A DNA stretch of 64,000 nucleotides, from NCBI RefSeq assembly GCF_056746865.1, contig NZ_CM163382.1; one strand, 5' to 3'. The translations under genes and the position numbers were made by a program. The notes below the pieces were generated by a model, which saw only the letters and a list, made by a program, of their open reading frames with translations, was not told the DNA's origin and did no database searches. Positions 15,487 to 36,717 of the stretch are shown piece after piece (the stretch's first letter is position 1; each line of letters opens with the position of its first letter).

Positions 15487-16133
15487 GCCTCTGCTCCGGG
15501 TTTGATCAGCATCAGACCACAGCCGAACGCGCGGCTTTTGCCATACCCCTGGCTCAGACGTTGCAGAAATAACCCGGGATCGGTGACCGTAAGCATCCCC
15601 GTATAATCCACGCTACTGAACTGGATCAGTTGCCGGGAGTTTTCCCGCCACAGTTGCTGTTGTCGGTAGGCATCAACCGAGGTATCCAGCAGTGTAAAAC
15701 CGCTTCTCTCCCCCTGCGCTGCCAGCCAGTCCAGCGCCGCCTGTTGTTGATGCAACCAGACATCACTTCCTTCCGCCTGCCCCCTCACCTGCCGTTTCGC
15801 CTCCATCAGCAGATCGTGGCGCTTGCCCGCTTTACAGATTGTTGGATTCGCCCGCAGGTTGAAACAAAGTTGTTGTCCGGTACGCAGCTCGGGCACAAAT
15901 GACCGGCATTCGATGGTGAACGTTTCACTTTCTGCCGGGCGTTCCTGCGACAGTACAAAAAAGCGAAACGCGCCCTGGAGTTCTTCCCGACGATAAAGAA
16001 ATTGCCTTTCTTTGCCGCCAGGGAAGAGATCCCACAGCCACTGATGCATCACATATTCCCCGCGATCCACCAGATGCAGCAACTGCGCAGGCGAAAGCTG
16101 GCCGGTATGTAAGGTTATTCTTGAGAGGTACAT
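15483..16133 (-). CDS. cas6e: Cas6e/CasE crRNA endoribonuclease (divergent I-E variant)
   Basis: Start at MYLSRITLHTGQ (ATG 16131-16133, GGAGG upstream); C-terminal ...GYGKSRAFGCGLMLIKP glycine-rich motif typical of Cas6e. Confidence 0.88.
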
Positions 16134-16810
16134 GGTTCCTCCTTGCTGAGCCACGGCCCCTGATTGACGGTGCGTTCCCCAAACAACCATTGCTGACGAT
16201 TTAAAGGAACATCCCGGCGGCGCAATATTTTGCTCGCGACCAGGCCGTCGTGCTCCCCTTCCCACCAGCATTCATCCTGAAGTTTCGGGAGTGCGATTTT
16301 CAGGTCGTGGAAATGCTCCTGATACTGGTGATATGCGTTACGTAAAACATCAGACGCGTTGCCTTCAAGCAGTAACGGCGCAAGTGGTAATGCCAGCGGA
16401 TGACTTTTTCGCCCCAGATAAAGCGGAAAAACTGGATGGCGTAAACCGCCCTGCAACTGTTCGAGGCTGTAAGGCGCATCGGCTGTTGTTGCCACCGCCA
16501 CCATCCACCAGGCGTCGGTGTAGTAGTCGCGCCGGGAGATAATCGCGCTCAGAAGATCAGGGTCGCTCAACTCTTCGCGACGGCTGAAATAACGCGCTTT
16601 ACGCACCTCTTTTGGCATCTGGATTGTGTGATAATCCCGTGCCCAGCGCGGGTTACGGCTGGCGCAAACCACCAGTGAATAGTGGCGGTTAAACACGTTT
16701 AATCGTTCGGTATCATCACGCCGAATCCCTACCCCGGCAGCCAGCAGCCCCAGCAATGCTGAGCGCGAAGGCAGTTCATGGGTATGACGCACTTCGCCCG
16801 CTCCAAACAA
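16115..16810 (-). pseudogene. cas5: cas5e/casD remnant lacking about 20-25 N-terminal codons; fused to island att core
   Basis: Cas5e-like body (...LPSRSALLGLLAAGVGIRRDD..., ...LYLGRKSHPLALPL...) but the frame opens with only a TTG 3 codons after a stop, and the first codons overlap the 15-bp att repeat. Confidence 0.8.
16792..16806. repeat. att core direct repeat (left copy), CTTCGCCCGCTCCAA
   Basis: Identical 15-mer recurs at 36704-36718; matches the acceptor-stem/CCA end of a tRNA. Confidence 0.6.
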
Positions 16811-16969
16811 ACATTTCTCAACGTCTACTGAAGTCCATCAAATCCACGAATATCAAGCCTTTCAGCCATTTTCATAGCTTATTAACGTCTACTCACAACT
16901 ACCAGAATCTACACACAGAAGTGTATAGTAATGCGTATAGGACAAAATTTATTTTTTGGAGCTATACAC

Positions 16970-18184
16970 ATGCTGCTTTCAGACCTTGCTATCAGGCGCG
17001 CGAAGCCGAAAGAAAAGGCTTATACACTCAATGACGGTAACGGGCTTTCGTTACTCATTGAGCCGAACGGCTCGAAAGGGTGGCGACTACGTTACAGATT
17101 TGCAGGAAAGCCCAAAATGTTGTCGTTGGGCGTGTACCCTGATGTGTCTCTGTCTGATGCCAGAGCGGCAAGGGATGAGGCTAAAAGGCTTCTTGCTGGT
17201 GGTATAAATCCAAGTGAGGCCAGAAAAGCTCAAAAGCGAGAACAGGCGAGCAAATTTGGCAATACTTTTGAGGGTATCGCTCGCGAATGGTATGAAAAGC
17301 GGATCGACAGGTGGTCATCGTCATACGCCGAGGAAATGATCGAGACGTTTGAAAAAGACGTTTTTCCGTACATTGGCGGCAGGCCGATCGCAGAAATTAA
17401 GCCAATGGAGTTGCTTGCGGTTCTCTCCCGTCTTAATGACCGTGGGGCGACCGAAAAATTGCGTAAGGTTCGCCAGCGATGCGGCGAGGTGTTCCGGTAC
17501 GCAATCATCACCGGACGCGCTGAATATAACCCCGCACCAGATCTGGCAAGCGCATTTGCTCCACACAAAAAAGAGCATTATGCCTATTTGAAGGCCGACG
17601 AACTGCCGGAATTTTTCCGCGTTCTTAATACGTACACCGGAAGCCAGATCGTCAAGCTGGGTATGCGATTATTGATTCTGACAGGGCTCCGGCCAGGGGA
17701 ATTACGACAGGCAGAATGGCAGGAGATCGATTTTGATAATCGTTTGTGGGAAGTGCCTAAAGAACGAATGAAGATGCGCCGTCCTCATTGTGTGCCGCTT
17801 TCAGAACAGGCGATCGCTATTCTGGAACAGTTAAAACACATGACGGGGCAGTATCAGTTTATTTTCCCTGGTCGAATCCAGCACAGTAAGCCGATGAGTG
17901 AAATGGCGATGAACGTGCTTATTCGTCGTATTGGCTATTCTGGGCGCGTTACTGGTCATGGGTTCCGGCACACGATGAGCACGATTTTACATGAGCAGGG
18001 CTATAACACCGCGTGGATAGAAACGCAGCTTGCACACGTTGATAAGAACTCAATTCGTGGCACGTACAATCATGCGCAATATCTGGACGGGCGGCGCGAG
18101 ATGCTCCAGTGGTACGCCGACTATATGGACTCACTGGAACAGGGCGGCAACGTGGTGCATGGCAAGTTCGGAAAATGTGGATGA
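16970..18184 (+). CDS. int: Tyrosine recombinase, P4-type integrase
   Basis: ORF 16931..18184; start taken at MLLSDLAIRRAKPKEKAYTLNDGNGLSLLIEPNGSKGWRLRY... (ATG 16970); C-terminal catalytic region with HGFRHT and Y. Confidence 0.93.
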   Translation: MLLSDLAIRRAKPKEKAYTLNDGNGLSLLIEPNGSKGWRLRYRFAGKPKMLSLGVYPDVSLSDARAARDEAKRLLAGGINPSEARKAQKREQASKFGNTFEGIAREWYEKRIDRWSSSYAEEMIETFEKDVFPYIGGRPIAEIKPMELLAVLSRLNDRGATEKLRKVRQRCGEVFRYAIITGRAEYNPAPDLASAFAPHKKEHYAYLKADELPEFFRVLNTYTGSQIVKLGMRLLILTGLRPGELRQAEWQEIDFDNRLWEVPKERMKMRRPHCVPLSEQAIAILEQLKHMTGQYQFIFPGRIQHSKPMSEMAMNVLIRRIGYSGRVTGHGFRHTMSTILHEQGYNTAWIETQLAHVDKNSIRGTYNHAQYLDGRREMLQWYADYMDSLEQGGNVVHGKFGKCG

Positions 18185-18312
18185 CTGGTTGAGTATACAG
18201 TAGTAGACTTTGAGCGACGAAAGAAAAAGCTGTGTCTAGGGTCGCTCCCGAAAAACCGTATACCTCGACGGGCTGGCACAGCCACTACAGTAGAGGACGC
18301 TGAGGTGTGCGT

Positions 18313-19110
18313 ATGATTGATATTCATGCCGAATTAAACGAATACAAAAAAGATTTTATTTCTTTACGTGAATTTCTTGAGGTCGTGCTTAAGGTCGCTG
18401 GTGATGATTATGATGTTTCAGATCTCATAACTTGGATACTCAGGAGAATAAGCGGAGAACATATCCGCCTGTACACAGTAAATGAATTTAAGCTGTTGGA
18501 ATCTTTTTGTAACCCGTATCGGGATGAATTTGATTATGATGTTCTTTATAGAAATCTGGATGCGGTTCGGAAACATGGTTGTTTACCTGGTGAGAGGGAT
18601 GAAAATGGTTTTCTGGTGTCCGGTTATTGGGAAGATCCCGAATTTGAGAACATTGGATTTATAAGGGGTGAAATTTTCGCAATTTTTCCCGATGTCCTTG
18701 ACGCGTTAACGAAGCTGGAAGGCGCTAACTCTTCTGAAAATGACGAGGTACAAGGACGCGATATTGAAAAGAAAGAGTTGCGTACAGAGGATGATTTATT
18801 ATCCCAAATCGCAATGCTGGAAAGAGAAAACGCAGAGTTAAGGGCAAGGATAGAGCAGTTAGAGCAAGAGCGCCCGATACACTTATATAAATACTGGGAT
18901 AAAGACCCATTAGCTAAGGCTATTGAGATTAGAAACAGAGAGTGGGCCAATTACGATCCAGAAAATGATTTTGCCACCAGGGGAAATCAAGAAGCGATAA
19001 CTAGGGAGCTTAAGCAGTGGGGGGCAAGTAATGCTCTTGCAACGCTCATAGAGAGGACTGCCTGCCCTATTAACCGAGACAACAGCCAAAAGAACGCAAA
19101 GCCGGATTAA
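18313..19110 (+). CDS. Hypothetical protein (265 aa) with acidic coiled-coil segment
   Basis: ORF 18307..19110; ATG 18313; coiled-coil-like stretch LLSQIAMLERENAELRARIEQLEQER; no family recognised by eye. Confidence 0.55.
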   Translation: MIDIHAELNEYKKDFISLREFLEVVLKVAGDDYDVSDLITWILRRISGEHIRLYTVNEFKLLESFCNPYRDEFDYDVLYRNLDAVRKHGCLPGERDENGFLVSGYWEDPEFENIGFIRGEIFAIFPDVLDALTKLEGANSSENDEVQGRDIEKKELRTEDDLLSQIAMLERENAELRARIEQLEQERPIHLYKYWDKDPLAKAIEIRNREWANYDPENDFATRGNQEAITRELKQWGASNALATLIERTACPINRDNSQKNAKPD

Positions 19111-19126
19111 CGCACCATACCGCATA

Positions 19127-19275
19127 CCCTGAGGGTGATTTACTGTTACCCTGAGGGTATTTTTTTATCTTCCCCGTCAATTTTACCATCACCCTTAGGG
19201 TAGATTTCCTCCCGATTACCATCACCCTTAGGGTTAATTTCCTTCCGGTAACCATTAGGCCTGAGGGTATGAAAA
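19127..19275. repeat. Five copies of an 11-bp near-palindromic motif ACCCT(G/T)AGGGT upstream of alpA
   Basis: taccctgagggtg, taccctgagggta, cacccttagggtag, cacccttagggtta, gcctgagggtatg within about 150 bp. Confidence 0.55.
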
Positions 19276-19337
19276 TATTCGTTATTTCTGTGCCATGATT
19301 ACCTCGTCAAATTGAGTAGACGTTATGAGGTAAATAG

Positions 19338-19535
19338 ATGTCAAATACGCTTATTCGTTTAACAGAAGTTCAGCGTAGAACTGGATATAGCAAGGCATGG
19401 ATTTATCGCCTTATGGGGCAAGGTAAATTTCCTGCATCAGTTAAAATTGGCTCGCGAGCGATTGCTTTCGTTGAAAGTGAAATTGACGAATGGATCAATC
19501 AGCGTATTGCCGAATCACGCGGAACGGCTGCCTGA
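19338..19535 (+). CDS. alpA: AlpA-family phage transcriptional regulator/excisionase
   Basis: 65 aa MSNTLIRLTEVQRRTGYSKAWIYRLMGQGKFPASVKIGSRAIAFVESEIDEWI, classic AlpA HTH. Confidence 0.85.
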   Translation: MSNTLIRLTEVQRRTGYSKAWIYRLMGQGKFPASVKIGSRAIAFVESEIDEWINQRIAESRGTAA

Positions 19536-19610
19536 TTAAATAGCTACGGGTTATTGCCCAAGCTATCCACTAGCAAATAAAAAGTAACTTAATTCGATAG
19601 CGGAGTTTTT

Positions 19611-20435
19611 ATGAAACTGCGAAAAACGCCCGTACAGGGGCAGGGCTTTGTTCGGCCTGAAAACCAGAATCTGCAAAATTTCGGCGAAATTATCCCGGTT
19701 ATTTCCGGCGTTATTGGCGGGCGTGAAGCCGCTGTTGTTAGCGCAAAAGCGTTACACAAAGCGTTGGGCGTGGGAAAAGACTTCTCTACATGGATCACTG
19801 ATCGTATCTCTGAATATGACTTCACCATTGGGTACGATTACTCAGTCCATAAAACAATTTCCCCAAATTTGGGGAAAAGCCCGAATGGCGAGGCTTACAG
19901 CAAGATTAAGCACTCTGGCAGACCCGGTAAAGACTATCTGTTAAGTGTCGGAATGGCGAAAGAACTGGCAATGATCGAACGCACCGAACAGGGCCGCGCC
20001 GTTCGTCAGTACTTCATCAAATGCGAGGAGGAGCTACACAAGGTAGCGCCTGTACGTTCCGCAGCGTTACGCCGGGAACTGAAAGCCCGTATCACCGTAG
20101 CCAGCTACTTTAAGCCAATGTGTGCCGCGCTGGAGGCGTACCGGGCTGAACTGGGTAAAAACACGCTCCAGCACCACTACACCACGGAAGCCAATATGCT
20201 GGCGCGTATCGTGCTGGGTGGCATGAATGCAAAACAGTGGGCGCAGGCGAACGGCATCACAGGCGAACCACGCGACCACATGAGCACGCTGCAGCTTGAG
20301 CACCTTTCTTACCTTGAGCAGAGCAATATCACGCTGATTGAGTTAGGCCAGGACTACCACCAGCGGAAAGCTGAATTAATTCGTCTTTCGCAACGCTGGT
20401 TAGCCCGCCGCATGGAGGTGAGCAGCCATGCGTAA
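19611..20435 (+). CDS. Phage antirepressor (AntA/KilAC-type)
   Basis: 274 aa; sequence resembles prophage antirepressor proteins; part of int-alpA-ant module. Confidence 0.65.
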   Translation: MKLRKTPVQGQGFVRPENQNLQNFGEIIPVISGVIGGREAAVVSAKALHKALGVGKDFSTWITDRISEYDFTIGYDYSVHKTISPNLGKSPNGEAYSKIKHSGRPGKDYLLSVGMAKELAMIERTEQGRAVRQYFIKCEEELHKVAPVRSAALRRELKARITVASYFKPMCAALEAYRAELGKNTLQHHYTTEANMLARIVLGGMNAKQWAQANGITGEPRDHMSTLQLEHLSYLEQSNITLIELGQDYHQRKAELIRLSQRWLARRMEVSSHA

Positions 20436-20985
20436 ACCTGTCTTTTATGCCGGTCGCACTGAAATCTCTGTCATTAAATTCGATGACATTCAGGTGCGCA
20501 TAGTGAGTATCAACGGCGAGCCGTGGTTTGTTGGCGCTGATGTGTGTGCCGCGCTGGAAATCAGCAATGTTACTGATGCCGTTTCAGTTCTGGATAACGA
20601 TGAGGTAATGACCCTAGCTTTAACCGAGGGTCATTCCGGTAAGCGTGGTGGTGCCAGAAGCTGGAATGTTGTCTCTGAATCAGGTTTCTACAAACTGATC
20701 GCCCGCAGCCGTAAAGCTTCCACACCAGGCACATTTGCGCACCGTTTCAGTAACTGGGTATTCCGCGAGGTGATTCCTTCAATCCGCAAAACGGGGGGTT
20801 ATGGTGTTCCGTTTGCCATGCTGAATGATTTCAGTAAACGTCAGGCTGCATATCAACAGGAAGCCAGCAAACGCGGTTACAGGTTACAGCAATGCAAAGA
20901 GGCAAAAGATGCACTGGAACGAGAAGAGCGGGCGCTATGGCGTAAATATCAGCCTGATTTTCTGGAGGGTGAAAGCAATGTGTAA
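20428..20985 (+). CDS. Bro-N domain protein (prophage antirepressor-like)
   Basis: 185 aa; N-terminal IRIVSINGEPWFVGADVCAALEISN is the Bro-N signature. Confidence 0.75.
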   Translation: MRKPVFYAGRTEISVIKFDDIQVRIVSINGEPWFVGADVCAALEISNVTDAVSVLDNDEVMTLALTEGHSGKRGGARSWNVVSESGFYKLIARSRKASTPGTFAHRFSNWVFREVIPSIRKTGGYGVPFAMLNDFSKRQAAYQQEASKRGYRLQQCKEAKDALEREERALWRKYQPDFLEGESNV

Positions 20986-21153
20986 CGATCCGAACGTTAC
21001 AGAAAGAAAAAGCGCCCCGTTGCTGGATAACAGGCAAAACAAAGGCGACCGGGATAGGTCGCCAGTGGGAACAAAGGAAATCAAACGCATCGCCAACAAT
21101 GCCAGATTTGCGGCTGGTGGGCAATGTGATCAGTGTGCTGGCTTGCTGGTGGG

Positions 21154-21351
21154 CTATTCCTGCTCTTTAGCATCGCCATACTGCGATGTTTTCCAGGTAT
21201 GCGATTCCATTTTTGTGCGCCTGTACTCTTTTAAGAACTTCTCAAGGACAAACGCACATGGCGCAAATCTTTCCTGTTCTTGTTCGCTTACCGCATTTTT
21301 GCGTTGTTTTTTCCTGGATGAGGATAATTTCTTTAATGATTTGTCAGTCAT
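21154..21351 (-). CDS. Small basic protein (65 aa), paralog-like partner of 21409..21606
   Basis: ORF on strand opposite to neighbours; both small ORFs end ...AKEQE and share a duplicated 3' DNA segment. Confidence 0.35.
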   Translation of the reverse strand: MTDKSLKKLSSSRKKQRKNAVSEQEQERFAPCAFVLEKFLKEYRRTKMESHTWKTSQYGDAKEQE

Positions 21352-21408
21352 CGTAGATACCTGTAACCCTGTGCGCCACAGTTCACCGCACCACGGCGCT
21401 GGTGATGG

Positions 21409-21606
21409 TTACTCCTGCTCTTTGGCCTTCCGGCGCTGTTCATATTTTAATTTGCGTCCACAGGCATCTAAGACCCATGCGGAAAAATTAGCACTAGGAT
21501 TAGTTAATTTTTCTTGTTCAACACTGGCATCAATCCCATCTATAAGCTCGTGCGGGAATCGAATATTTTTCTTTGCTGATTTGTTGTTTGTGTTTCCGCT
21601 AGACAT
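21409..21606 (-). CDS. Small ribbon-helix-helix-like DNA-binding protein (65 aa)
   Basis: NIRFPHELIDGIDASVEQEK...FSAWVLDA resembles Arc/CopG RHH pattern. Confidence 0.4.
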   Translation of the reverse strand: MSSGNTNNKSAKKNIRFPHELIDGIDASVEQEKLTNPSANFSAWVLDACGRKLKYEQRRKAKEQE

Positions 21607-21810
21607 TGGTACACCTCACTTAAATGGATTTGATGGGCGCACACAATACAGCAAAAAAAGTGAGAAGTTAAGTATTGACATGTGCGCACACATGATTTTA
21701 ATCTGTGCGCAAGTTTGGGTTGCATTGCTCAAATTAAGCAACGCCCCGCAGTGCTCGCAACACATGCAGGGCGTCTAACCACCAACGATAGAAAGCGTAT
21801 CGAGGTAGCT

Positions 21811-22014
21811 ATGTTAAATCATACCACACACCCGCAAGGGCGGGACTCGCACAACCTGAATAAATACATCTGGCGTTTTATCGCCCTGAGCACCGCACAA
21901 CCACGCGTAATACACATCGAGGCCGCCAGCGAACAGGAAGCCCGTCAGCAATCCCCGGCTGGCTGCGTGATGGTATTTACTGCCCGCATCCGTCAGGGGG
22001 AATACTATGCGTGA
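21811..22014 (+). CDS. Small hypothetical island protein (67 aa)
   Basis: ATG 21811 after GAGG; MLNHTTHPQGRDSHNLNKYIWRFIALSTAQ... Confidence 0.4.
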   Translation: MLNHTTHPQGRDSHNLNKYIWRFIALSTAQPRVIHIEAASEQEARQQSPAGCVMVFTARIRQGEYYA

Positions 22015-22264
22015 TGAACGATTTATTCTTCTGGAGCAAAAATTCAGTGAAGCGCCAAAAAATGAAATTGATGCTCTTTTGCATATCGCGAATATGCTAA
22101 AAGTAGCAACGTTCCTTATAGTTTCGAATCTGGAGCATGAAACGGCGTTAGATATACTGAACAGTGCTGTCGATTATTCTGAATATATTGCCGAGGATAA
22201 ATACAGGCAATTACCAGATTTGTTAGCCCATAAATATAAAGAAGAACCTCACACCGGGAAATAA
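22007..22264 (+). CDS. Hypothetical protein (85 aa)
   Basis: ORF in operon-like series upstream of primase gene. Confidence 0.45.
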   Translation: MRDERFILLEQKFSEAPKNEIDALLHIANMLKVATFLIVSNLEHETALDILNSAVDYSEYIAEDKYRQLPDLLAHKYKEEPHTGK

Positions 22265-22266
22265 AC

Positions 22267-22569
22267 ATGAAGAAGATTAAATTTACTGGCTTAAATGCCA
22301 GCGGACAGACTCACCCGAAAATCAGGATCGGGGATATTTTCCGGGATAAATATGGTGACAGCGTGGTTATTAATTCCGTGTATGAACGGCACATTACATA
22401 CCGCCGCGCAGGGTACGACTATGACTGTGTGATGCCCGTTCATCAGTTCCGGCGTGATTTTTCACTGGTATGTGCAGCACCACGCAGTAAGCCCACCAGT
22501 AAAGAGAAAGCACGGGCAAATATTCAGGTAATAAAGAACATGATTAACGCATTCAGGGGCAAGAAATGA
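22267..22569 (+). CDS. Hypothetical protein (100 aa)
   Basis: ORF overlapping primase start; tight spacing with neighbours. Confidence 0.45.
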   Translation: MKKIKFTGLNASGQTHPKIRIGDIFRDKYGDSVVINSVYERHITYRRAGYDYDCVMPVHQFRRDFSLVCAAPRSKPTSKEKARANIQVIKNMINAFRGKK

Positions 22570-24692
22570 AACGCGCACCGAATTTAAAGCACCAGCCGAA
22601 AGACAAAATGACGGAGGTGATTATCTTTGCGGGTAGTGATGCCTGGGCACATGCGAAAGAGTGGAGCGAATGGGCCGGAAAGCATATTGCGGCAGATGAT
22701 ACACATCCAGTTATTCTTGGACCGGAACAACTGGCGAGTCTGGCAGACACGCAAATCATCGACAAAGGGCGCTATTACGTGCGCGTTTATCGTGCTGGTG
22801 AAATATCAGAGCAGCACCTTACACAGATAGCGACACTGCTTGCAGTGGCGGGTGTGAAGGAGGCGCGTTGCTACCGCAGCTTTGTTGATCAGCAGCCGGA
22901 GGACTGGACACCGCGCATGGCTGGACTGAAGGATGATGCGGAACGCGGTAACAGTCTGGTGATCAACCTTCCGGCGAAGACAAATTTCACCGGAAATTAT
23001 GATGACGAATTAAAGCCTCGTGTTGAAAGTCGCGTCGATGGTGTTTTCTGGGTAACGCCCAAAGTGGACAAGCAGTCAGGCGAAATTATCCGGCCTGAGA
23101 CGTGGTTATGTTCTCCGCTTGAACTACTGGGAACAGGAACAATCGGCAAAGAGCATTACCGCGTGATGCGCTGGAAAAAACCAGCAAACCATGAGGTCAT
23201 TACAATGGCGGTCCCGTGCGGAGGCATTGGTGACCGTGACGGCTGGCGGTTGCTGAAAGACCACGGCCTTAACGTGACGACCAACGGCAAATACAGGGCT
23301 ATCTTGGCTGACTGGATGCAGTTAAGCGGAAACCATGAGGAATGGCAGTTAAGCACAACAACGGGGTGGCATTTTGGTGCGTACATCATGCCGGATGGTT
23401 CGATCATCGGTGAATCAGAGAAACCCATCCTGTTTACCGGAAAAACTGCCGCTGTTAATGGCTATTCCGTGGCGGGAACAGCGGAGGGCTGGCGCGATAC
23501 CGTGGCACGGCTGGCTGGTGGTAATCCGTCCATGATGCTGGGTGTGGCGGTATCGCTATCTGCACCATTAATCGGGCTGGTGGGTGCTGACGGCTTCGGG
23601 GTTCATCTTTTTGAGCAATCATCAGCAGGTAAAACCACCACACAGAACATTGCATCAAGTTTATGGGGAGAGCCGGACGCGCAACGGCTGACCTGGTACG
23701 GAACGGCGTTAGGTATCGCCAACGAGGCCGAAGCACATAATGACGGGCTGTTACCCCTGGATGAAATAGGCCAGGCCGGAAACGCACGGGAGGTGTCCAC
23801 GTCAGCCTATACGCTGTTTAACGGTTCCGGGAAATTACAGGGGGCGAAGGACGGCGGCAACAGGGAGATAAAACACTGGCGTACGGTGGCAATCAGCACC
23901 GGAGAAATGGACGTTGAAACATTCCTCAAAACGGAAGGGATAAAAATTAAAGCGGGACAGCTTGTCCGTCTGCTTAACGTACCGATGGAAAAGGCCTCGC
24001 AGTTTCACGAATACAGCACCGGAAAGGCGCACGCAGACGCGTTAAAAGATGCCTGGACAGAAAATCACGGGGCGGCAGGTCGTGAGTGGGTTAAATGGCT
24101 GGCAGGCCACCAGCAGGAGGCAAAGGACGCGGTAAGGGCATGTCGCGAGCGGTGGCGCAACCTGATACCGGAGAGCTACGGCGAGCAGGTTCACCGTGTG
24201 GGGGAAAGATTCGCCGTACTGGAGGCCGCGCTTGTGCTTTCCGGTCATGTTACAGGCTGGGATGTTCAGGCGTGCCGTGATGCAGTTCAGCATAACTTTA
24301 ATGCCTGGGTGAAGGAATTCGGCACGGGCAACAGGGAATTTAAACAGATGGTTGAACAGGCTGAGGCGTTTTTGTCGTCGTTCGGGTTCAGTCGATACCT
24401 TCCCTATCCAAACAGCGACGAGCGTGATTTACCGATTAAAGACCTTGCCGGATACAGAAAGGGGAGTATCAGAAACGAAGATGACGAGTTCCGTTTTTAC
24501 ACGTTCCCGCATGTGTTTGAGGGTGAGATAGCACAGGGATTTAATCCGTCTCACTTTGCCCGCGCGTTGAGTGCAGCCGGAATGCTGGAAGCGGGAGGCG
24601 ACCGCCGTTACAAGAAAAAGGCGCTCGGCAGGATTGGCGGGAAGCAACATATTTTTTACGTGCTGATGTTCCAGCCTGAAGCAGAAGATTAA
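22566..24692 (+). CDS. Satellite/prophage replication protein, DUF927-type primase-helicase-like, Walker A present
   Basis: 708 aa; Walker A-like FEQSSAGKTT; immediately followed by iterons. Confidence 0.75.
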   Translation: MKRAPNLKHQPKDKMTEVIIFAGSDAWAHAKEWSEWAGKHIAADDTHPVILGPEQLASLADTQIIDKGRYYVRVYRAGEISEQHLTQIATLLAVAGVKEARCYRSFVDQQPEDWTPRMAGLKDDAERGNSLVINLPAKTNFTGNYDDELKPRVESRVDGVFWVTPKVDKQSGEIIRPETWLCSPLELLGTGTIGKEHYRVMRWKKPANHEVITMAVPCGGIGDRDGWRLLKDHGLNVTTNGKYRAILADWMQLSGNHEEWQLSTTTGWHFGAYIMPDGSIIGESEKPILFTGKTAAVNGYSVAGTAEGWRDTVARLAGGNPSMMLGVAVSLSAPLIGLVGADGFGVHLFEQSSAGKTTTQNIASSLWGEPDAQRLTWYGTALGIANEAEAHNDGLLPLDEIGQAGNAREVSTSAYTLFNGSGKLQGAKDGGNREIKHWRTVAISTGEMDVETFLKTEGIKIKAGQLVRLLNVPMEKASQFHEYSTGKAHADALKDAWTENHGAAGREWVKWLAGHQQEAKDAVRACRERWRNLIPESYGEQVHRVGERFAVLEAALVLSGHVTGWDVQACRDAVQHNFNAWVKEFGTGNREFKQMVEQAEAFLSSFGFSRYLPYPNSDERDLPIKDLAGYRKGSIRNEDDEFRFYTFPHVFEGEIAQGFNPSHFARALSAAGMLEAGGDRRYKKKALGRIGGKQHIFYVLMFQPEAED

Positions 24693-24715
24693 CTTCCCTG
24701 TGTGAGGTAAAAAGT

Positions 24716-24845
24716 TGCGGGTTATGCGGGTTATCCTGTGCATAAGTTAATTAACTGAATGATTAAAAAGGAAATTAATAACCCGCACGTAACCCGCAAA
24801 ACGGCAGTTATAACCCGCAAATGTGCGATTGTAACCCGCAAAATT
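24716..24845. repeat. Iteron cluster 1 (putative replication origin): convergent copies of TTGCGGGTTAT / ATAACCCGCAA
   Basis: gttgcgggttatgcgggttat then aataacccgcacgtaacccgcaaaacggcagttataacccgcaaatgtgcgattgtaacccgcaaa. Confidence 0.7.
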
Positions 24846-24902
24846 TCACTGTAAGAGTGTAAACAAGCGTAACTATCACGTTAAAACCGGAGAACAAACA
24901 GC

Positions 24903-25328
24903 ATGACGGCGCAAATATCAGCTTACGGGCGGCTGGTGGCTGACCCGCAGTTAAAGACCACCAGCAAGGGCACACAAATGGCGATGGCGAGTATGGCGGT
25001 CCCCCTTCCATGCAATCAGACAGATGACGGAACGGCGACGATGTGGTTATCCGTCCTGGCGTTTGGCAGACAGGCTGACGCACTGGCAAAACACCACAAA
25101 GGCGAACTGGTGAGCGTGGCCGGTAACATGCAGGTGAGCTGGTGGACGGGCCAGAACGGCGAAACGAGGCAGGGATGGCAGGTTATCGCAGACAGCGTAA
25201 TCAGTGCGCGAACGGCGCGACCGGGCGGCAAAAAAGGCCAGCAGGGGCAGGCTACTGATGCACTGAACAGGGCAAAGCAACAGACAGGCCAGCACGATGA
25301 TCCGTACGGGGACGGGATACCGTTTTAA
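24903..25328 (+). CDS. Single-stranded DNA-binding protein-like (OB-fold)
   Basis: 141 aa; pattern GRLVADPQLKTT...WLSVLAFGRQADALAKHHKGELVSVAGNMQVSWW...GETRQGWQV resembles SSB OB-fold core; Gly/Gln-rich tail ending DDPYGDGIPF like the SSB acidic tip. Confidence 0.55.
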   Translation: MTAQISAYGRLVADPQLKTTSKGTQMAMASMAVPLPCNQTDDGTATMWLSVLAFGRQADALAKHHKGELVSVAGNMQVSWWTGQNGETRQGWQVIADSVISARTARPGGKKGQQGQATDALNRAKQQTGQHDDPYGDGIPF

Positions 25329-25411
25329 TTCACAACAGCGAACAGAGTAATTACCCAGTGCGCCGTAAAGCCCCGTCCTTCAGGTCGGGGATATAAGGCG
25401 CGGTTTTCCAC

Positions 25412-25828
25412 CTAACTAGGTGTTTGCTGTTGTTCAATGTATTGGCGGATGATGGATATTGGCGCACCTCCGCAGCTACTGGCAAAATAGCTGGGACTCC
25501 ATAAAACGCCTTTGTAGTAATACCTGACTGCAATATCTGGTCGATCTCGTCGCAATAATCTACTCGATACGCCCTTGAGACTGTTCACCAGGGTGGATAT
25601 CGCCAATTTGGGAGGATAGTTAATTAGCAGGTGAACGTGATCTCGTTCTCCATCCATTTCAACCAGTTCAGCTTCAAAATCAGCACATACACTTGAAAAG
25701 TAAGTGCGTAGTTTTTCTATTGCGTCATGGTCAAAAATCTGGCGTCGGTACTTGGTAACAAAGACCAGGTGAACGTGCATCAGGAAGACACAGTGCCTTC
25801 CACGTCGGATATCGGTTTCTTTTTTCAT
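25412..25828 (-). CDS. tnpA: IS200/IS605 Y1 transposase TnpA
   Basis: Start at MKKETDIRRGRHCVFLMHVHLVFVTKYRR; HuH motifs HVHLV and DHVHLL; ends ...GGAPISIIRQYIEQQ. Confidence 0.88.
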   Translation of the reverse strand: MKKETDIRRGRHCVFLMHVHLVFVTKYRRQIFDHDAIEKLRTYFSSVCADFEAELVEMDGERDHVHLLINYPPKLAISTLVNSLKGVSSRLLRRDRPDIAVRYYYKGVLWSPSYFASSCGGAPISIIRQYIEQQQTPS

Positions 25829-25850
25829 AGGCCAAAGTATAATTTGGCAT

Positions 25851-27059
25851 ATGAAACGACTACAAGCTTTCAAATTCCAGTTAAGACCAAATGGAAAACA
25901 GGAGCGTGAAATGAGGCGCTTCGCGGGCGCATGTCGTTTCGTTTTCAATCGTGCTCTGGCGCTTCAGAATGAGAATCATGAGGCCGGGAACAAATATATT
26001 TCTTATGCAAAGATGACTTCCTGGCTGGTTGAATGGAAAAATGCTACTGAAACGCAATGGCTTAAAGATTCTCCCTCACAGCCATTGCAGCAGTCACTGA
26101 AAGACCTTGAGCGAGCCTACAAAAATTTCTTTCAGAAGCGTGCCGCTTTTCCCCGATTCAAAAAGCGGGGACAGCATGATGCATTCCGCTATCCGCAGGG
26201 TGTTAAGCTCGATCAGGAAAACAGCCGTATTTTTCTGCCGAAACTGGGCTGGATGCGCTACCGGAACAGCCGTCAGGTCACGGGTGTTGTGAAAAATGTC
26301 ACTGTCAGCCAGTCCTGCGGTAAGTGGTACATCAGTATTCAGACAGAAAGTGAAGTATCAACTCCGGTTCACCCTTCAGCATTAATGGTCGGGCTGGATG
26401 CTGGCGTGGCTAAACTCGCCACGCTGTCAGATGGCACGGTCTTTGAGCCTGTAAACAGTTTTCATAAAAACCAGAAGAAGCTGGCGAGACTTCAGCGCCA
26501 GTTAAGCCGCAAGGTTAAATTCAGCAACAACTGGCAGAAGCAGAAACGCAAAATACAGCGACTGCATTCCCGTATCGCAAATATCCGCAGGGACTACCTT
26601 CACAAAGTCACAACGACCATCAGCAAAAACCACGCAATGATAGTCATTGAGGATTTGAAGGTCAGCAACATGTCAAAGTCAGCCTCGGGTACGGTCAGCC
26701 AGCCGGGGCGCAATGTCCGGGCAAAATCAGGTTTAAACCGTTCGATACTGGATCAGGGCTGGTATGAAATGCGCCGTCAGCTTGAGTACAAGCAGCTCTG
26801 GTGTGGCGGTCAGGTGCTTGCTGTTCCGCCAGCGTACACAAGCCAGCGTTGCGCGTGCTGTGGTCATACAGCGAAAGAAAATCGCCTGTCACAAAGTCAA
26901 TTCAGATGCCAGGTATGTGGATATACAGCGAACGCCGATGTAAACGGCGCTCGTAACATTTTAGCGGCGGGGCACGCCGTTCTTGCCTGTGGAGGGATGG
27001 TGCAGTCAGGCCGCCCGTTGAAGCAGGAACCCACCGAAATGATTCAGGCGACAGCCTGA
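25851..27059 (+). CDS. tnpB: TnpB (OrfB) RNA-guided nuclease-like protein
   Basis: 402 aa; [17 protein letters not shown]...; C-terminal CxxC...CxxC zinc finger ([37 protein letters not shown]). Confidence 0.9.
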
Positions 27060-27265
27060 ACGTAGCAGGAATCCACGTCCTTCAGGGCGTGGAGGATGTC
27101 AAATATCAATGCGACGACTGGAATGTTCCAGGAAGGCACAGAGGCCACCGAAGCAACCGGATAATTTAGAAGACCTGAAACGGTCGCTTAAACGCACTGA
27201 AAAAGAAATGGGGATAGATGGGATCGGGAAATCAGTATGGCGTAACTACCAGAAGTAAGCACAGA
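27060..27265 (+). ncRNA. Putative omegaRNA (reRNA) scaffold at tnpB 3' end / IS right end
   Basis: By analogy with IS200/IS605 TnpB systems; structured region ending in hairpin GCCGGAGCAATCCGGC plus T-run. Boundaries not determined. Confidence 0.35.
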
Positions 27266-27289
27266 GCCGGAGCAATCCGGCTTTTTTTT
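27266..27289 (+). terminator. Hairpin plus T8 tract at IS right end
   Basis: gccggagcaatccggc followed by tttttttt. Confidence 0.5.
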
Positions 27290-27389
27290 GGCTGAAATCA
27301 ATCAATCTGTTTTTGTGATAGAAATATATTTATCTACCACTTTTTTCGATCAATAATGTGCATAATTTAGTCATTAAGAGGAAATTGCT

Positions 27390-27596
27390 GTGAATTGTAT
27401 TAACGACCTGAACACAGGCGATGTCAGAGGTGGTTCCGTTCATCTGGATGCACAGACCGTGATGCGCCTTAAGCAGTACAGAATCGACCATGTGAACAAT
27501 CACCCTGATCAGCCATTACCAGGCGTGGCGCAGATTGTCAGACATGCCGTAAACGCCTGGCTTAATCAGAATGGTTTTGCATCGGGGGGTGAGTAA
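27390..27596 (+). CDS. Small protein (68 aa), first gene of the novel operon; possible regulator
   Basis: GTG start 27390 preceded by AAGAGG; no recognisable family. Confidence 0.45.
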   Translation: MNCINDLNTGDVRGGSVHLDAQTVMRLKQYRIDHVNNHPDQPLPGVAQIVRHAVNAWLNQNGFASGGE

Positions 27597-27692
27597 TGAA
27601 TCGCTGGTACAGCATCAAAGCAGAGGGACGCCAATGTTATCTAACTCAGGTTTTATGAATTCTGACTCCCGATTCAAAATAGGAGGTTACTA

Positions 27693-30224: not shown

Positions 30225-32284
30225 TGTCTGATGTTTTTTCTTTGGCTCCAGAAGGTCAGGCATGGATTGACGACAAAACAGTTGCCAACCCAGCAAGGCC
30301 AGAAGACTACGATCCGACTCCCTTCCAGGGTTCAGGTACTGCACTTTTGAGCGGCGTGGCGGAGGGGGCTCTCGGTCTCGCGCAGTCTGCCGTCGGATTC
30401 AGCAAGCGTCTGATTAGCGATCCGGCATTTACCGCAGACGTGGCACCGACAGTTAATATTTTTCGGGAGATGTTCCCTGATGCTGACAAAACACTGAATG
30501 ATACATACGACACGATCGGAAAACAGTTACAGGATGCCCGCAGCTATGTGAAGCCTGATGCAGGCAGCCAGGGAATGGCGGCTGAGGTATTAAATGAGCT
30601 TGGTAAATTTGTTCCTGCAATCGGAACAACTATGTTTGGTGGTCCGCTCATCGGCGCTGCTACAGCCTTCAGTTCTACGTATGAGCAGTCCTATCAGGAT
30701 TTTAAAGGGAAGGGAGTAGACGAGGCTACAGCGCGTAACCTGGCAACGCAGCAGAGCCTTTTCAATGCTGTGGGTATGGCCTTACCCGCTGCCGTCGGCA
30801 CCACACTGGCAACGCGCATTGCCTCAGGTGTGGCAATCAACACCGGATTCGGTGGACTGAACCGTTACTCAGTAGGCGCAACACTGGAGGAAAAAGGCTA
30901 CACGGAGATGGCAAAACAGTATCGGGTATTTGACGGTCAGGCGATGTTAGTCGATGCCGTTTTAGGCGGGGTCTTTGGTGGCGTTCATCACCTGACTACC
31001 CATAATAACCATGATGGTACAGAGTCGAACATTTCTGCAGAAGAAATAAAATCAACTTTTGGTGAACATTATCAGCAATCTCCTGATGGTAACATTGAGT
31101 CAATGGTTCGTGATTTATCTGATTCAGGAGTAATAGAACTTATTAATGAACCAGCAATAAAAAATAGTGATGGAGAAATACTTCTGAATAAAGGTCATGT
31201 GACAGTAGCTTCCGGAAAAGAACCAATAATAAGAATAAATATTAATGGATTAAAAGACCATGAAGAACTGTTAGAAACCCTTCATCACGAGGCGCTTCAT
31301 CTTGAGCAGCGCCATTACCCTGACTGGAAGGCCAGAAAGCTAGCTAATGCTGTACTTAAATCTGCAAACAAGCATTCTGACTATCCTGAATTTGCATATG
31401 GGATGTCACAATATTATGAATATAAGAAAAGGGGTGAGTACCCTGAAACATATCCTGAGTGGTTGTACGCTGAAGAAGTTGCCGCACATGCAGTAAATCC
31501 ATCTCTAAAGACAAGCGTTTCATCATGGGAAAAAATTATTTCAGGTTTTAAAGCCTATATATTCAGATACAGTGGTATTCAGGTTGGAACCGTTACACCT
31601 GAGCAGTTACGGTTACTCGTAAGTATGCGTCTTCGCAATATGAAACTGGAAGCCGCAGTAGAAAAAGTTTTTGGTATCCGGGCGAGGGAAAGAATAAAAC
31701 CAAGCGATATTGATGCAGCCCACATTTTGAATGAGGGGCTTCATTACGATATTGAATCGTCACCAGTGCTTCATACCAGCAATGAGAGCATCAACAGCCA
31801 TGTTGACGCCATGGATGAAGCATACAGGCAACTTAATGATGGTCAGCCTGTAAATGTTGGGGGGATGGCGCGAGGGCTTGATGGTCCATTGCGATCAGAT
31901 ATATCTGATACTTACCAAGAGCAATACCATGAAATACAAAAGGTTTTTGAAGAAAATGGTGTCAGATACGAAACATCATCAGAGCCAATTAGTGAATCGC
32001 CTGTCCCTCGTGCTGAAAGTGCTTTCTCATCGGCTGGTGAACACAGAGGGGACATCAGCGTTGATCCAGATACAGGGCAGGTTCTCTCATCCAACAGCTA
32101 TGACCTTATGGCTGCCAGGGACATGGCTGTTGCCAATCCTGAGCTGACTATAGCTCACCCGGAAACCGGAAACCCGACAAAACTTTCTGATCTCCTGGCT
32201 GAGTTGGATGAACAGATTAAGACAGTCCAGAACGAATCGAAGGTTTATTCTGTAGCAGCAGCGTGCTTCTTGAGGAACCCATAA
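30224..32284 (+). CDS. Large hypothetical protein P2 (686 aa) with glycine-rich hydrophobic segments and an HExxH motif
   Basis: HEALH at nt 31286-31300; N-terminal third has repeated Gly/Ala-rich hydrophobic stretches; TAATG coupling at both ends. Confidence 0.8.
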   Translation: MSDVFSLAPEGQAWIDDKTVANPARPEDYDPTPFQGSGTALLSGVAEGALGLAQSAVGFSKRLISDPAFTADVAPTVNIFREMFPDADKTLNDTYDTIGKQLQDARSYVKPDAGSQGMAAEVLNELGKFVPAIGTTMFGGPLIGAATAFSSTYEQSYQDFKGKGVDEATARNLATQQSLFNAVGMALPAAVGTTLATRIASGVAINTGFGGLNRYSVGATLEEKGYTEMAKQYRVFDGQAMLVDAVLGGVFGGVHHLTTHNNHDGTESNISAEEIKSTFGEHYQQSPDGNIESMVRDLSDSGVIELINEPAIKNSDGEILLNKGHVTVASGKEPIIRININGLKDHEELLETLHHEALHLEQRHYPDWKARKLANAVLKSANKHSDYPEFAYGMSQYYEYKKRGEYPETYPEWLYAEEVAAHAVNPSLKTSVSSWEKIISGFKAYIFRYSGIQVGTVTPEQLRLLVSMRLRNMKLEAAVEKVFGIRARERIKPSDIDAAHILNEGLHYDIESSPVLHTSNESINSHVDAMDEAYRQLNDGQPVNVGGMARGLDGPLRSDISDTYQEQYHEIQKVFEENGVRYETSSEPISESPVPRAESAFSSAGEHRGDISVDPDTGQVLSSNSYDLMAARDMAVANPELTIAHPETGNPTKLSDLLAELDEQIKTVQNESKVYSVAAACFLRNP

Positions 32285-35354: not shown

Positions 35355-35362
35355 CATGTCAC

Positions 35363-35388
35363 AGGCCGCTTTCGCGGCCTTGTTTTTA
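35363..35388 (+). terminator. Rho-independent terminator closing the P1-P4 operon
   Basis: aggccgctttcgcggcct followed by tgttttt, 9 bp after the P4 stop. Confidence 0.6.
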
Positions 35389-36699: not shown

Positions 36700-36717
36700 T
36701 TCCCTTCGCCCGCTCCA
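36700..36717. repeat. tRNA 3'-end remnant / right att repeat (TTCCCTTCGCCCGCTCCA)
   Basis: 18 nt consistent with T-arm/acceptor stem/CCA of tRNA-Gly (glyU-like) as I recall it; contains the 15-bp repeat shared with 16792-16806. No complete tRNA in the window. Confidence 0.55.

What the first reader, a model, noticed from the sequence alone, without database searches (positions are those of the whole stretch)
18313..19110. Orphan 265-aa coiled-coil protein immediately downstream of the integrase
A single-gene unit between int and alpA, with its own intergenic regions, an acidic N-terminal half and a central coiled coil, and no recognisable family. Integrase-proximal positions in satellites and islands are known hotspots for accessory genes.
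Basis: partly seen in the sequence, partly recalled or inferred. Interest (0 to 1): 0.5.

Follow-up and report, generated by a model that had tools for sequence, protein, structure and literature searches.

The report
Candidate regulator guarding satellite switch alpA
The 265-aa protein is real and belongs to no named family. It most likely binds a row of five evenly spaced palindromes in front of alpA, the genomic island's master switch, which makes it a testable candidate for the still-unknown regulator of Gram-negative phage-satellite islands.

Summary
The ORF (18313-19110, +, 265 aa) is real and matches no Pfam, NCBIfam, PHROG, PADLOC or PDB family. It is not an orphan.

- **Protein.** A hypervariable acidic N-domain and a leucine zipper precede a conserved 70-aa C-domain. 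That C-domain occurs behind many unrelated N-termini in Enterobacterales, Orbaceae and Pasteurellaceae.
- **Setting.** The gene starts 17 nt after the Rfam int-alpA RNA (RF02996). It is followed by five helically phased palindromes (ACCCTNAGGGT) that reach the alpA promoter.
- **Comparison.** In 80 related loci, all 40 with this C-domain carry the palindromes and all 40 without it carry none, even when alpA or int is 97-100% identical. The int-alpA slot almost always holds one or two co-oriented genes of many unrelated kinds. The three other recurring C-terminal tail types, and several single cases, each have their own repeated DNA motif there. When the same kind of N-domain is joined to a different tail, the motif follows the tail.

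Best reading: a dimeric DNA-binding regulator of alpA, probably a repressor, whose variable N-domain senses the helper phage. DNA binding and the direction of regulation are inferred, not shown. The fold is unknown and the C-domain is not basic.

The parts
18313..19110 (+). Slot gene X, 265 aa. Residues 1-138 (18313-18726) form a variable acidic N-domain. Residues 139-158 are a disordered linker. Residues 159-186 (18787-18870) form a leucine zipper. Residues 187-256 (18871-19080) form the conserved four-helix C-domain ('type A tail').
   Evidence: ORF and translation. AlphaFold2: full length pLDDT 73.5, C-terminal part pLDDT 89. Across homologues, identity to the query has a median of 31% in the N-domain (falling to 11-20% in distant members) and a median of 65% (range 46-100%) in the C-domain.
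18229..18296 (+). int-alpA RNA motif (Rfam RF02996). It is most likely the 5' leader of the slot gene.
   Evidence: cmscan gives 46.9 bits against a gathering score of 35.8, E = 2e-7. The same motif lies upstream of slot genes of tail types A, B, C, D and others in 13 of 19 other loci. The sequence is conserved right up to the start codon.
19126..19136 (.). Operator-like palindrome 1, ACCCTGAGGGT (centre -207 from the alpA ATG).
   Evidence: There are four exact copies in 110 bp and none elsewhere in the 64 kb. About 0.8 matches (at up to one mismatch) are expected by chance.
19148..19158 (.). Operator-like palindrome 2, ACCCTGAGGGT (centre -185).
19191..19201 (.). Operator-like palindrome 3, ACCCTTAGGGT (centre -142). 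It lies inside a 33-bp direct repeat unit.
19224..19234 (.). Operator-like palindrome 4, ACCCTTAGGGT (centre -109). It lies inside the second 33-bp repeat unit.
19258..19268 (.). Promoter-proximal degenerate palindrome 5, GGCCTGAGGGT (centre -75 from the ATG, about -43 from the inferred transcription start).
   Evidence: The site sits at -74 to -76 in 24 of 37 distinct type A upstream regions.
19291..19299 (+). Inferred extended -10 element of the alpA promoter (TGC CATGAT).
   Evidence: A TGn-NANN[A/T]T element is present in 24 of 25 distinct type A regions. In most of them its last T lies at -37 to -40 from the ATG. No canonical sigma-70 promoter was found in 16700-19700. This element is an inference.
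19300..19332 (+). Hairpin that pairs the alpA Shine-Dalgarno sequence (19325-19332) with an upstream arm (19300-19307).
   Evidence: Minimum free energy -8.2 kcal/mol. The pairing is kept with different sequences in other loci.
19338..19535 (+). alpA (65 aa), the AlpA-family master activator or excisionase of the island.
   Evidence: Pfam Phage_AlpA in homologous loci. Its role in Gram-negative PICIs is taken from PMC6092414.
16931..18184 (+). Tyrosine integrase. RefSeq places the start at the position equivalent to 16970.
16792..16805 (+). Left att repeat, CTTCGCCCGCTCCA (3' end of tRNA-Gly). It marks the left end of the 19.9-kb island.
36704..36717 (+). Right att repeat, which marks the right end of the island.

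Best explanation
X is a homodimeric, sequence-specific DNA-binding regulator of the island's master switch alpA.

The leucine zipper (residues 159-186) would pair two conserved C-terminal four-helix domains (187-256). Each dimer would then read one ACCCTNAGGGT palindrome. Five such sites, spaced by whole helical turns, fill the spacer between the X stop codon and the alpA promoter, so X would assemble on one face of the DNA up to about position -43.

I commit to the repressor version. While bound, X keeps alpA off and the island stays integrated. The hypervariable acidic N-domain is the input. A helper-phage protein, or another infection signal, binding it would release or re-arrange the complex. 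alpA would then fire, activate itself, and drive excision and replication. This is the logic of the staphylococcal Stl repressor, built from unrelated parts. X itself would be translated from the conserved int-alpA RNA leader.

Shown here: the domain architecture; the site array, its phasing and its fixed position; the strict link between C-domain type and DNA motif; the conserved RNA leader.

Inferred: direct DNA binding; dimerisation; the direction of regulation; the signal sensed by the N-domain.
For: 1. There are four exact and one degenerate ACCCTNAGGGT sites in 19126-19268 and none elsewhere in the 64 kb.
2. Among 80 loci chosen only for a related AlpA, all 40 with the X C-domain have 1-5 sites within 320 bp upstream of alpA, and all 40 without it have none. 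Loci L044-L049 have an AlpA 97% identical to this one. L048 also has an integrase 97% identical at protein level, on a backbone that is 91-96% identical at DNA level on either side of the replaced block. All of them lack the sites, so neither AlpA nor Int is the binder.
3. The C-domain occurs behind at least six unrelated N-termini and always with this kind of palindrome.
4. The same kind of N-domain joined to a different tail (P0084, P0079) comes with TTCCAA or TACCAA repeats instead.
5. Each tail type has its own motif. Mean counts per upstream region: motif A is 3.2 with tail A and 0 with every other tail; motif C is 3.9 with tail C and at most 0.5 elsewhere; motif D is 2.0 with tail D and 0 elsewhere.
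6. Tails A and B are homologous (hhalign probability 96.8%, E = 2e-10), yet they come with different palindromes.
7. In Orbaceae and Pasteurellaceae both half-sites change together to ACTATNATAGT. Those stems are too AT-rich to form RNA hairpins.
8. Site spacings cluster at 22, 33, 43, 55 and 66 bp, with vector strength 0.79 at a 10.5-10.8 bp period. Positions relative to the alpA ATG are fixed.
9. The zipper has Asn172 at an 'a' position, as in parallel dimeric zippers.
10. The literature leaves this role open. In Gram-negative PICIs no repressor is known, AlpA is a self-activating activator, and helper phages switch alpA on by an unknown route (PMC6092414; PMC11773190).
Against: - The C-domain is not basic (net charge 0, pI 6.8) and the whole protein has pI 4.67.
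- The tail coding sequence and the sites are physically adjacent. Co-inheritance as one recombination cassette (block 18216-19316) could produce the association without direct binding.
- The sites lie at about -43 and further upstream, not over the -10 element or the start site. That fits an activator as well as a repressor.
- The best-studied islands, EcCICFT073 and EcCIMP1, stay silent without any such gene, so a repressor is not strictly required.
- No experimental data exist for any member.
Confidence: 0.42

Rival explanations
1. X binds the same DNA but acts in the opposite direction. It is a phage-sensing activator of alpA. Bound at about -43, like a class II activator, it would recruit RNA polymerase to the weak extended -10 promoter once its N-domain has detected the helper phage.
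For: The promoter-proximal site is centred about 43 bp upstream of the inferred start site, and no site overlaps the -10 element or the start. No strong sigma-70 promoter is present. Published work shows that alpA needs the helper phage to be switched on and that no repressor is known (PMC6092414). Islands without the slot gene are silent anyway.
Against: Five phased sites extending to about -175 from the inferred start are more typical of a repressive or architectural assembly than of a simple activator. AlpA already supplies positive feedback. The transcription start is only inferred.
Confidence: 0.25
2. X is accessory cargo, for example an anti-phage or host-modulating protein, sitting in an integrase-proximal hotspot. 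The palindromes are unrelated features of the cassette, such as terminators or recombination signals.
For: The slot is hypervariable, with about 20 unrelated gene clusters. The gene has lower G+C (0.38-0.45) than int (about 0.50). Conserved flanks could act as homology arms for cassette exchange. Two of the palindromes score as weak terminator-like hairpins.
Against: There is no PADLOC hit. The gene shares a conserved RNA leader with all other slot genes. Each tail type has its own repeated motif, some of them direct repeats that cannot form hairpins. The sites are phased and positioned relative to alpA rather than to the X stop codon. Both half-sites change together in distant lineages.
Confidence: 0.13
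3. The conserved C-domain binds a protein or an RNA rather than DNA. Candidates are AlpA, the integrase, RNA polymerase or the int-alpA RNA. An unidentified host or island factor would bind the palindromes.
For: The C-domain is neutral and has no recognised DNA-binding fold. In related loci the N-module carries a protein-interaction tag, an SSB C-terminal tip. This shows that the family makes protein contacts.
Against: The unidentified factor would have to change specificity every time the tail type changes, on an otherwise very similar backbone. AlpA and Int are excluded as the site binders by the same data.
Confidence: 0.1
4. X is an iteron-binding or centromere-binding protein. The array would serve replication or segregation of the excised island rather than transcription.
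For: Arrays of repeats phased at 22 or 33 bp are typical of plasmid iterons and ParR-type centromeres (established knowledge; spacing data).
Against: The island has its own P4-alpha-like primase-helicase (DUF927, 22566-24692). In such islands the origin maps downstream of that gene (PMC10111431). X has no partner ATPase next to it. The array is fixed relative to the alpA start codon.
Confidence: 0.05

Closest known systems
Stl / Rpr master repressors of SaPIs and Gram-positive PICIs
   Same: They are encoded next to int. They control the island's lytic switch. They are modular, with a DNA-binding part joined to a highly variable part that (in Stl) binds a helper-phage protein. They are extremely diverse between otherwise similar islands (PMC6092414).
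   Different: There is no sequence or fold similarity. Stl has an N-terminal helix-turn-helix and is transcribed divergently from the genes it controls. X is co-oriented with int and alpA, and its conserved, presumed DNA-binding part is C-terminal and of unknown fold. Binding of a phage protein by X is untested.
Eukaryote-type bZIP transcription factors (the name RefSeq gives some copies)
   Same: Both have a short parallel-type leucine zipper with Asn at an 'a' position, adjoining a segment presumed to read palindromic DNA as a dimer.
   Different: X has no basic region. The 20 residues before the zipper are acidic (net -2). The Pfam bZIP_2 match has E = 0.054, which is below significance, and covers only the zipper. 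The conserved domain is globular and follows the zipper.
Rfam RF02996 int-alpA RNA (Weinberg et al. 2017, PMC5737381)
   Same: The element at 18229-18296 is a member, scoring 46.9 bits against a gathering score of 35.8.
   Different: The motif has no assigned function, and I found no paper that describes one. Here it ends 17 nt before the start codon of the slot gene, in this and many other loci. This suggests it is the leader of a protein-coding gene that annotation often misses.
Gram-negative PICIs (EcCICFT073, EcCIMP1) and P4-like satellites
   Same: The backbone is similar: tyrosine integrase, AlpA, Bro/Ant proteins, Icd-like protein, DUF4222, a P4-alpha-like primase, SSB and PerC. Many related loci also carry P4-type C4/isrK immunity RNAs.
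   Different: EcCICFT073 and EcCIMP1 have only a 365-427 bp spacer between int and alpA. It holds no slot gene, no int-alpA RNA and no ACCCTNAGGGT sites. I did not look for capsid or packaging genes in the window island, and its three large cargo ORFs are unassigned. No C4/isrK RNA was detected in 16500-26000.
Defence hotspots of P2 phages and P4 satellites
   Same: Both are fixed positions, bounded by conserved sequence, where unrelated genes replace one another.
   Different: The genes here share a leader RNA, a modular plan and cognate DNA repeats on a regulatory promoter. None matches a known defence model.

Membership tests
bZIP transcription factor (Pfam PF00170 / PF07716) | A significant profile match that includes the basic DNA-contact region immediately N-terminal to the zipper. 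| tested here: not met
   bZIP_2 gives E = 0.054 over residues 154-186 only. The preceding segment is acidic.
bZIP transcription factor (Pfam PF00170 / PF07716) | A heptad leucine zipper able to form a parallel dimer. | tested here: inconclusive
   L162, L169, L176 and L183 with Asn172 lie on a predicted helix at 159-186. The oligomeric state was not modelled or measured.
Stl/Rpr-type PICI master repressor | An XRE- or CI-type helix-turn-helix DNA-binding domain. | tested here: not met
Stl/Rpr-type PICI master repressor | The gene is transcribed divergently from the genes it represses, with operators in the shared intergenic region. | tested here: not met
   X is co-oriented with int and alpA, and the sites lie downstream of X.
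Stl/Rpr-type PICI master repressor | Repression is lifted when the repressor binds a helper-phage protein. | not testable with these tools
   This needs genetics or biochemistry. Only the hypervariability of the N-domain is seen.
Known anti-phage defence systems (PADLOC-DB 2.0) | A match to any model of a defence-system protein. | tested here: not met
   Zero families at E up to 1.
Rfam RF02996 int-alpA RNA (upstream element, not the protein) | A covariance-model score at or above the curated gathering threshold. | tested here: met
   46.9 bits against 35.8, with the full-length model matched, at 18229-18296.
Type A tail family defined in this work (slot proteins with the DPL..AI.IRN.EW.NYD...A..IE.VACPI.R domain) | The conserved C-terminal domain with invariant D198, R207, W211, I246, E247, C251, P252 and R255. 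| tested here: met
   Alignments A1 and A2. There are 65 clusters at 50% identity.
Type A tail family defined in this work | The gene lies directly upstream of an AlpA-family gene, with an array of cognate palindromes in between. | tested here: met
   This holds in the window and in the Enterobacterales, Orbaceae and Pasteurellaceae loci examined. The decayed Photorhabdus remnant L013 keeps only a partial site.
AlpA-type phage satellite (Gram-negative PICI in the broad sense) | An integrase, alpA and a primase-type replication gene in one orientation, between att repeats. | tested here: met
   int 16931-18184, alpA 19338-19535, DUF927 primase-helicase 22566-24692, att repeats at 16792 and 36704.
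AlpA-type phage satellite (Gram-negative PICI in the broad sense) | Induction, packaging and transfer by a helper phage. | not testable with these tools
I did not look for packaging genes in the island.

The most novel reading that the evidence does not exclude
The int-alpA slot of a large class of gamma-proteobacterial satellites encodes the missing infection sensors of these elements. They would form a hypervariable family of two-module regulators, functional analogues of Stl. A new kind of DNA-binding tail (types A and B, plus other types) would clamp the alpA promoter. Interchangeable N-modules would each recognise a different helper-phage protein. Some N-modules carry a copy of the host SSB C-terminal tip (PMDFDDDIPF) and so could report on phage replication or recombination proteins. 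The orphan Rfam int-alpA RNA would be the shared translational leader of these sensors.
Probability: 0.3. Interest if true: 0.85.

Novelty: new variant of a known kind. Interest (0 to 1): 0.68.

Why it matters
How Gram-negative phage satellites stay silent, and how a helper phage switches on alpA, has been an open question since these islands were described. No repressor and no inducer are known (PMC6092414).

This locus supplies a concrete candidate with defined parts: a protein, five binding sites and a promoter. It also offers a natural set of domain-swap controls, so the question can be tested with reporter fusions and gel shifts.

If the reading is right, three further things follow.
- It gives a context, and a likely role, to an orphan Rfam RNA.
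- It defines at least one new DNA-binding domain family.
- It shows that a site that looks like a cargo hotspot can be a diversifying regulatory switch. This matters for how accessory and defence genes are mined from islands.

Tried and rejected
**Family searches that found nothing useful.**
- Pfam returned only coiled-coil noise.
- PHROGs returned only short coiled-coil families.
- NCBIfam, PADLOC and a PDB profile search returned nothing or only coiled-coil matches.
- Foldseek on AFDB50 returned only uncharacterised proteins.
- tblastn against 50,697 phage genomes gave no match.

**Readings rejected.**
- The RefSeq name 'bZIP transcription factor', because there is no basic region.
- AlpA or the integrase as the palindrome binder. 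Loci with 97-100% identical AlpA, and one (L048) with a 97% identical integrase, lack the sites when the tail differs.
- Small RNA hairpins or terminators as a general explanation. The Pasteurellaceae and Orbaceae versions are AT-rich, and other tail types use direct repeats.
- Integrase arm sites, because the array lies 2.3 kb from the att core.

**Leads that went nowhere.**
- EcCIMP1_002, the small ORF between int and alpA of a published PICI, is not a homologue, and that spacer has no palindromes.
- K-12 yfjH, which occupies the same slot in CP4-57 on the opposite strand, is unrelated.
- A first genome scan with the broad alignment A2 failed for lack of a conserved peptide stretch. It was repeated with a narrower alignment.
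- The simple promoter scan found no sigma-70 consensus, so the extended -10 element is my own inference.
- I could not decide between repressor and activator from site geometry.

Full report
Window 18313-19110 (+) is an intact ORF of 265 aa, with GAGGTG 5 nt before its ATG. It lies between a tyrosine integrase (ORF 16931-18184) and a 65-aa AlpA-family gene (19338-19535). The same ORF is annotated in RefSeq and occurs in 147 of 5426 complete E. coli genomes. There it normally sits in an island at tRNA-Gly (glyU), downstream of actS. Residues 1-138 are strongly acidic (net -14, pI 4.5). AlphaFold2 predicts a folded N-domain, a disordered linker (139-157), a long helix (159-186) and four short C-terminal helices. 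The helix has leucines at 162, 169, 176 and 183 and Asn172 at an 'a' position, which is a dimer-type zipper. Pfam, PHROGs, NCBIfam, PADLOC and a PDB profile search return only coiled-coil noise or nothing.

**It is not an orphan but a modular protein.** Sequence searches find 43 relatives in a 5.8-billion-protein set and 65 clusters at 50% identity. Alignment shows three parts:
- The N-domain's identity to the query falls from 97% to 11-20%, meaning unrelated, across the family.
- The zipper keeps its heptad.
- The 70-residue C-domain stays 46-100% identical. Its pattern is ERPILL.KYRDDDPL..AIEIRNREWANYDP...TRGNQ.AI..EL...G.S...A..IE.VACPI.R, with invariant D198, R207, W211, I246, E247, C251, P252 and R255.

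**The flanks are the informative part.**

*Upstream.* The 128-bp spacer holds a member of Rfam RF02996, the 'int-alpA RNA' (18229-18296, 46.9 bits against a gathering score of 35.8). This family has no known function. The conserved sequence runs on to the Shine-Dalgarno sequence and the start codon. The same RNA precedes slot genes of every type in 13 of 19 other loci.

*Downstream.* The 227-bp spacer holds four exact ACCCTNAGGGT palindromes and a fifth, degenerate one. No other copy occurs in the 64 kb.

**The palindromes go with the C-domain.** Loci found with the C-domain in Salmonella, Citrobacter, Kluyvera, Raoultella, Pantoea, Cedecea, Xenorhabdus, Orbaceae, Aggregatibacter and another Pasteurellaceae genome almost all show the same order. 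The gene comes first, then an array of 11-13 bp palindromes starting 5-15 bp after the stop codon, then an AlpA-family gene. The decayed Photorhabdus remnant L013 keeps only a partial site. In Orbaceae and Pasteurellaceae both half-sites have changed together, to TACTATNATAGTA. Such AT-rich stems could not be stable RNA hairpins, but the symmetry is what a symmetric dimer would need.

I then collected 80 loci solely by similarity to this AlpA (75-100% identity). All 40 that encode the C-domain have 1-5 ACCCTNAGGGT sites (at most one mismatch) within 320 bp upstream of alpA. All 40 that do not encode it have none. The second group includes L044-L049, whose AlpA is 97% identical. It also includes L048, whose integrase is 97% identical at protein level and whose backbone is 91-96% identical at DNA level on either side. 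In L048 exactly the block 18216-19316 is replaced. AlpA and Int are therefore not the proteins that read these sites.

**The slot follows a general rule.**
- In the 80 loci int and alpA are 1.0-2.1 kb apart, and nearly all hold one or two co-oriented ORFs there. These fall into about 20 unrelated clusters. None has a curated family, except DUF6387 in two.
- Many end in one of a few tail types, and each recurring tail type has its own repeated motif in front of alpA:
  - type A: ACCCTNAGGGT, mean 3.2 per region, and 0 with every other tail;
  - type B: ATGGTG..CACCAT-like palindromes;
  - type C: TTCCAA or TACCAA direct repeats, mean 3.9 against at most 0.5 elsewhere;
  - type D: two copies of ACCGCAATTGCGGT, found only with that tail.
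- Single cases carry TGGAATATTCCA or TTGCATGCAG pairs.
- Tails A and B are homologous (hhalign probability 96.8%, E = 2e-10) but come with different palindromes.
- In the natural domain swap, P0084 and P0079 have the query-like N-domain and a type C tail. Their spacers carry TTCCAA or TACCAA repeats and no type A site. The DNA motif follows the tail, not the N-domain.

**The array has a defined geometry.** In 37 distinct type A upstream regions the centre-to-centre spacings cluster at 22-23, 32-34, 42-44, 55-56 and 66 bp. These are whole helical turns, with vector strength 0.79 at 10.5-10.8 bp. The sites sit at fixed distances from the alpA ATG: -75, -109, -142 or -151, -175 or -185, and -207. 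The array is thus anchored to alpA, not to the end of X. No canonical sigma-70 promoter is found. A TGn-NANN[A/T]T extended -10-like element is present in 24 of 25 distinct regions. In the window it is 19291-19299, and in most regions its last T lies at -37 to -40 from the ATG. With a start site near 19306, the proximal site would be centred near -43.

**How it most likely works.** Taken together, X looks like a zipper-dimerised, sequence-specific DNA-binding protein. It would load cooperatively on one face of the alpA upstream region through its C-domain. The N-domain would be the exchangeable input. [quoted passage not shown] I therefore favour a repressor whose hold is broken when the N-domain meets a helper-phage product, as with Stl in SaPIs. 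This step is inference.

**What weakens this reading.**
- The site positions fit a class II-type activator about as well.
- The C-domain is neutral (pI 6.8) and of unknown fold.
- Tail and sites are adjacent, so co-inheritance within one cassette cannot be fully excluded.
- EcCICFT073 and EcCIMP1 have no slot gene, no int-alpA RNA and no such sites, yet remain silent.

My estimates are about 0.65-0.7 that X is a DNA-binding regulator of alpA. Within that, 0.42 goes to the repressor reading and 0.25 to the activator reading.

**Comparison with what is known.** Functionally the closest analogue is Stl/Rpr, but X fails its structural definitions: it has no HTH and no divergent arrangement. The RefSeq label 'bZIP transcription factor' fails on the basic region. 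Known defence systems do not match. The upstream RNA is a true member of RF02996. The island is an AlpA-type satellite backbone (int, alpA, AntA/Bro, Icd-like, DUF4222, DUF927 primase, SSB, PerC). I found no paper that describes the slot proteins, their tails or the operator arrays. I rate the finding a new variant of a known kind, namely a master regulator of a mobile element.

**Side observations.**
- The island (16792-36717, bounded by 14-bp att repeats) does not sit at an intact tRNA-Gly here. Its left end abuts a truncated type I-E cas5e gene, while its right flank is the usual glyU flank. The junction is absent from 5426 complete E. coli genomes.
- The alpA Shine-Dalgarno sequence is paired in a conserved hairpin whose 5' arm lies at or upstream of the inferred start site.
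- In Kluyvera, Raoultella, Pantoea and related IMG/VR loci the slot gene is split. The N-terminal ORF ends in PPMDFDDDIPF, which to my knowledge is the C-terminal tip of E. coli SSB. This hints that the N-module makes contacts with proteins that recognise SSB tails.

Noticed in passing
window 16115-16810 (cas5e/casD remnant, minus strand), junction at 16792-16805; right end at 36704-36717: The island is bounded by the 14-bp repeat CTTCGCCCGCTCCA, the 3' end of tRNA-Gly, but no tRNA is present in the window. The left flank is a 5'-truncated type I-E cas5e gene, followed by cas6e, cas1, cas2 and a CRISPR array. The right flank is the normal glyU-side flank (GH15, eivF). None of 5426 complete E. 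coli genomes has this junction. The simplest reading is a large inversion between attL and a pseudo-att site in cas5e, which would split the cas operon. An assembly chimera is the alternative.
   Followed up: partly
window 18229-18296 (+): Rfam RF02996 int-alpA RNA, an orphan motif, ends 17 nt before the slot gene's ATG. It precedes slot genes of every type in related loci. An alternative fold pairs its inner-loop ACCUC with the Shine-Dalgarno sequence of X, so it may control X translation.
   Followed up: partly
window 19291-19340: A conserved extended -10-like element (TGC CATGAT, 19291-19299) is followed by a hairpin (19300-19307 pairing with 19325-19332, -8.2 kcal/mol) that sequesters the alpA Shine-Dalgarno sequence. 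Transcripts starting at the inferred promoter would lack the 5' arm, whereas read-through transcripts from int or X would keep it. The design resembles IS10 fold-back inhibition. The pairing is kept with different sequences in other loci.
   Followed up: partly
L007 6483-6803 and 6821-7279; also L008, L009, L014, L056, L061, L063, L078, L084, L093, L094: In these relatives the slot gene is split in two. The first ORF (about 106 aa, homologous to the N-terminal 95 or so residues of X) ends in ...PPMDFDDDIPF. To my knowledge this is identical to the C-terminal tip of E. coli SSB that docks genome-maintenance proteins. The second ORF carries the zipper and the DNA-motif-linked tail. The window protein is the fused form and lacks this tip.
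   Followed up: partly
window 18195-18228, and the same position in many loci: A direct repeat of GTAGAC (for example AGTAGACTT..GTAGACGA) lies just upstream of the int-alpA RNA and is conserved across slot types and integrase types. A similar TAGACG lies in the loop of the alpA leader hairpin. It could be a promoter or a binding site for AlpA or Int. Its role is unexplained.
   Followed up: no
window 25851-27059 (+): A 402-aa ORF matches Cas12f/TnpB models strongly (E = 1.6e-90), so it is an IS200/IS605-type TnpB. It lies in the part of the island that, in strain SCU-105, holds ProQ/FinO and PerC genes. This is probably an IS insertion or replacement.
   Followed up: partly
window 27693-30224, 30224-32284, 32263-35040 (+): Three large, tightly packed ORFs (843, 686 and 925 aa) form the cargo end of the island. 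They are annotated as hypothetical in RefSeq and match no PADLOC model. They may be an undescribed defence or other cargo system.
   Followed up: partly
L016-L021 (Pasteurellaceae bacterium Macca): One genome carries at least six copies of a type A tail gene with the same downstream TACTATGATAGTA sites and an AlpA-like gene. This implies multiple related islands in one cell.
   Followed up: no
L108 2145-3101 (E. coli K-12 CP4-57, yfjH): In the classic alpA locus of K-12, the slot between intA and alpA holds yfjH (318 aa) on the opposite strand, only 43 bp from alpA. This is a divergent, Stl-like arrangement. The protein is unrelated to any slot protein seen here.
   Followed up: partly
window 24903-25328 (+): The island encodes its own 141-aa SSB, whose C-terminus is ...DDPYGDGIPF, a variant of the canonical SSB tip.
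   Followed up: no
L051, L065, L071, L081, L083, L104, L015: Many related islands carry P4-type immunity RNAs (Rfam C4, isrK, c4-a1b1) downstream of alpA. None was detected in window 16500-26000 at E up to 1. The window island may therefore rely on a different immunity mechanism.
   Followed up: partly
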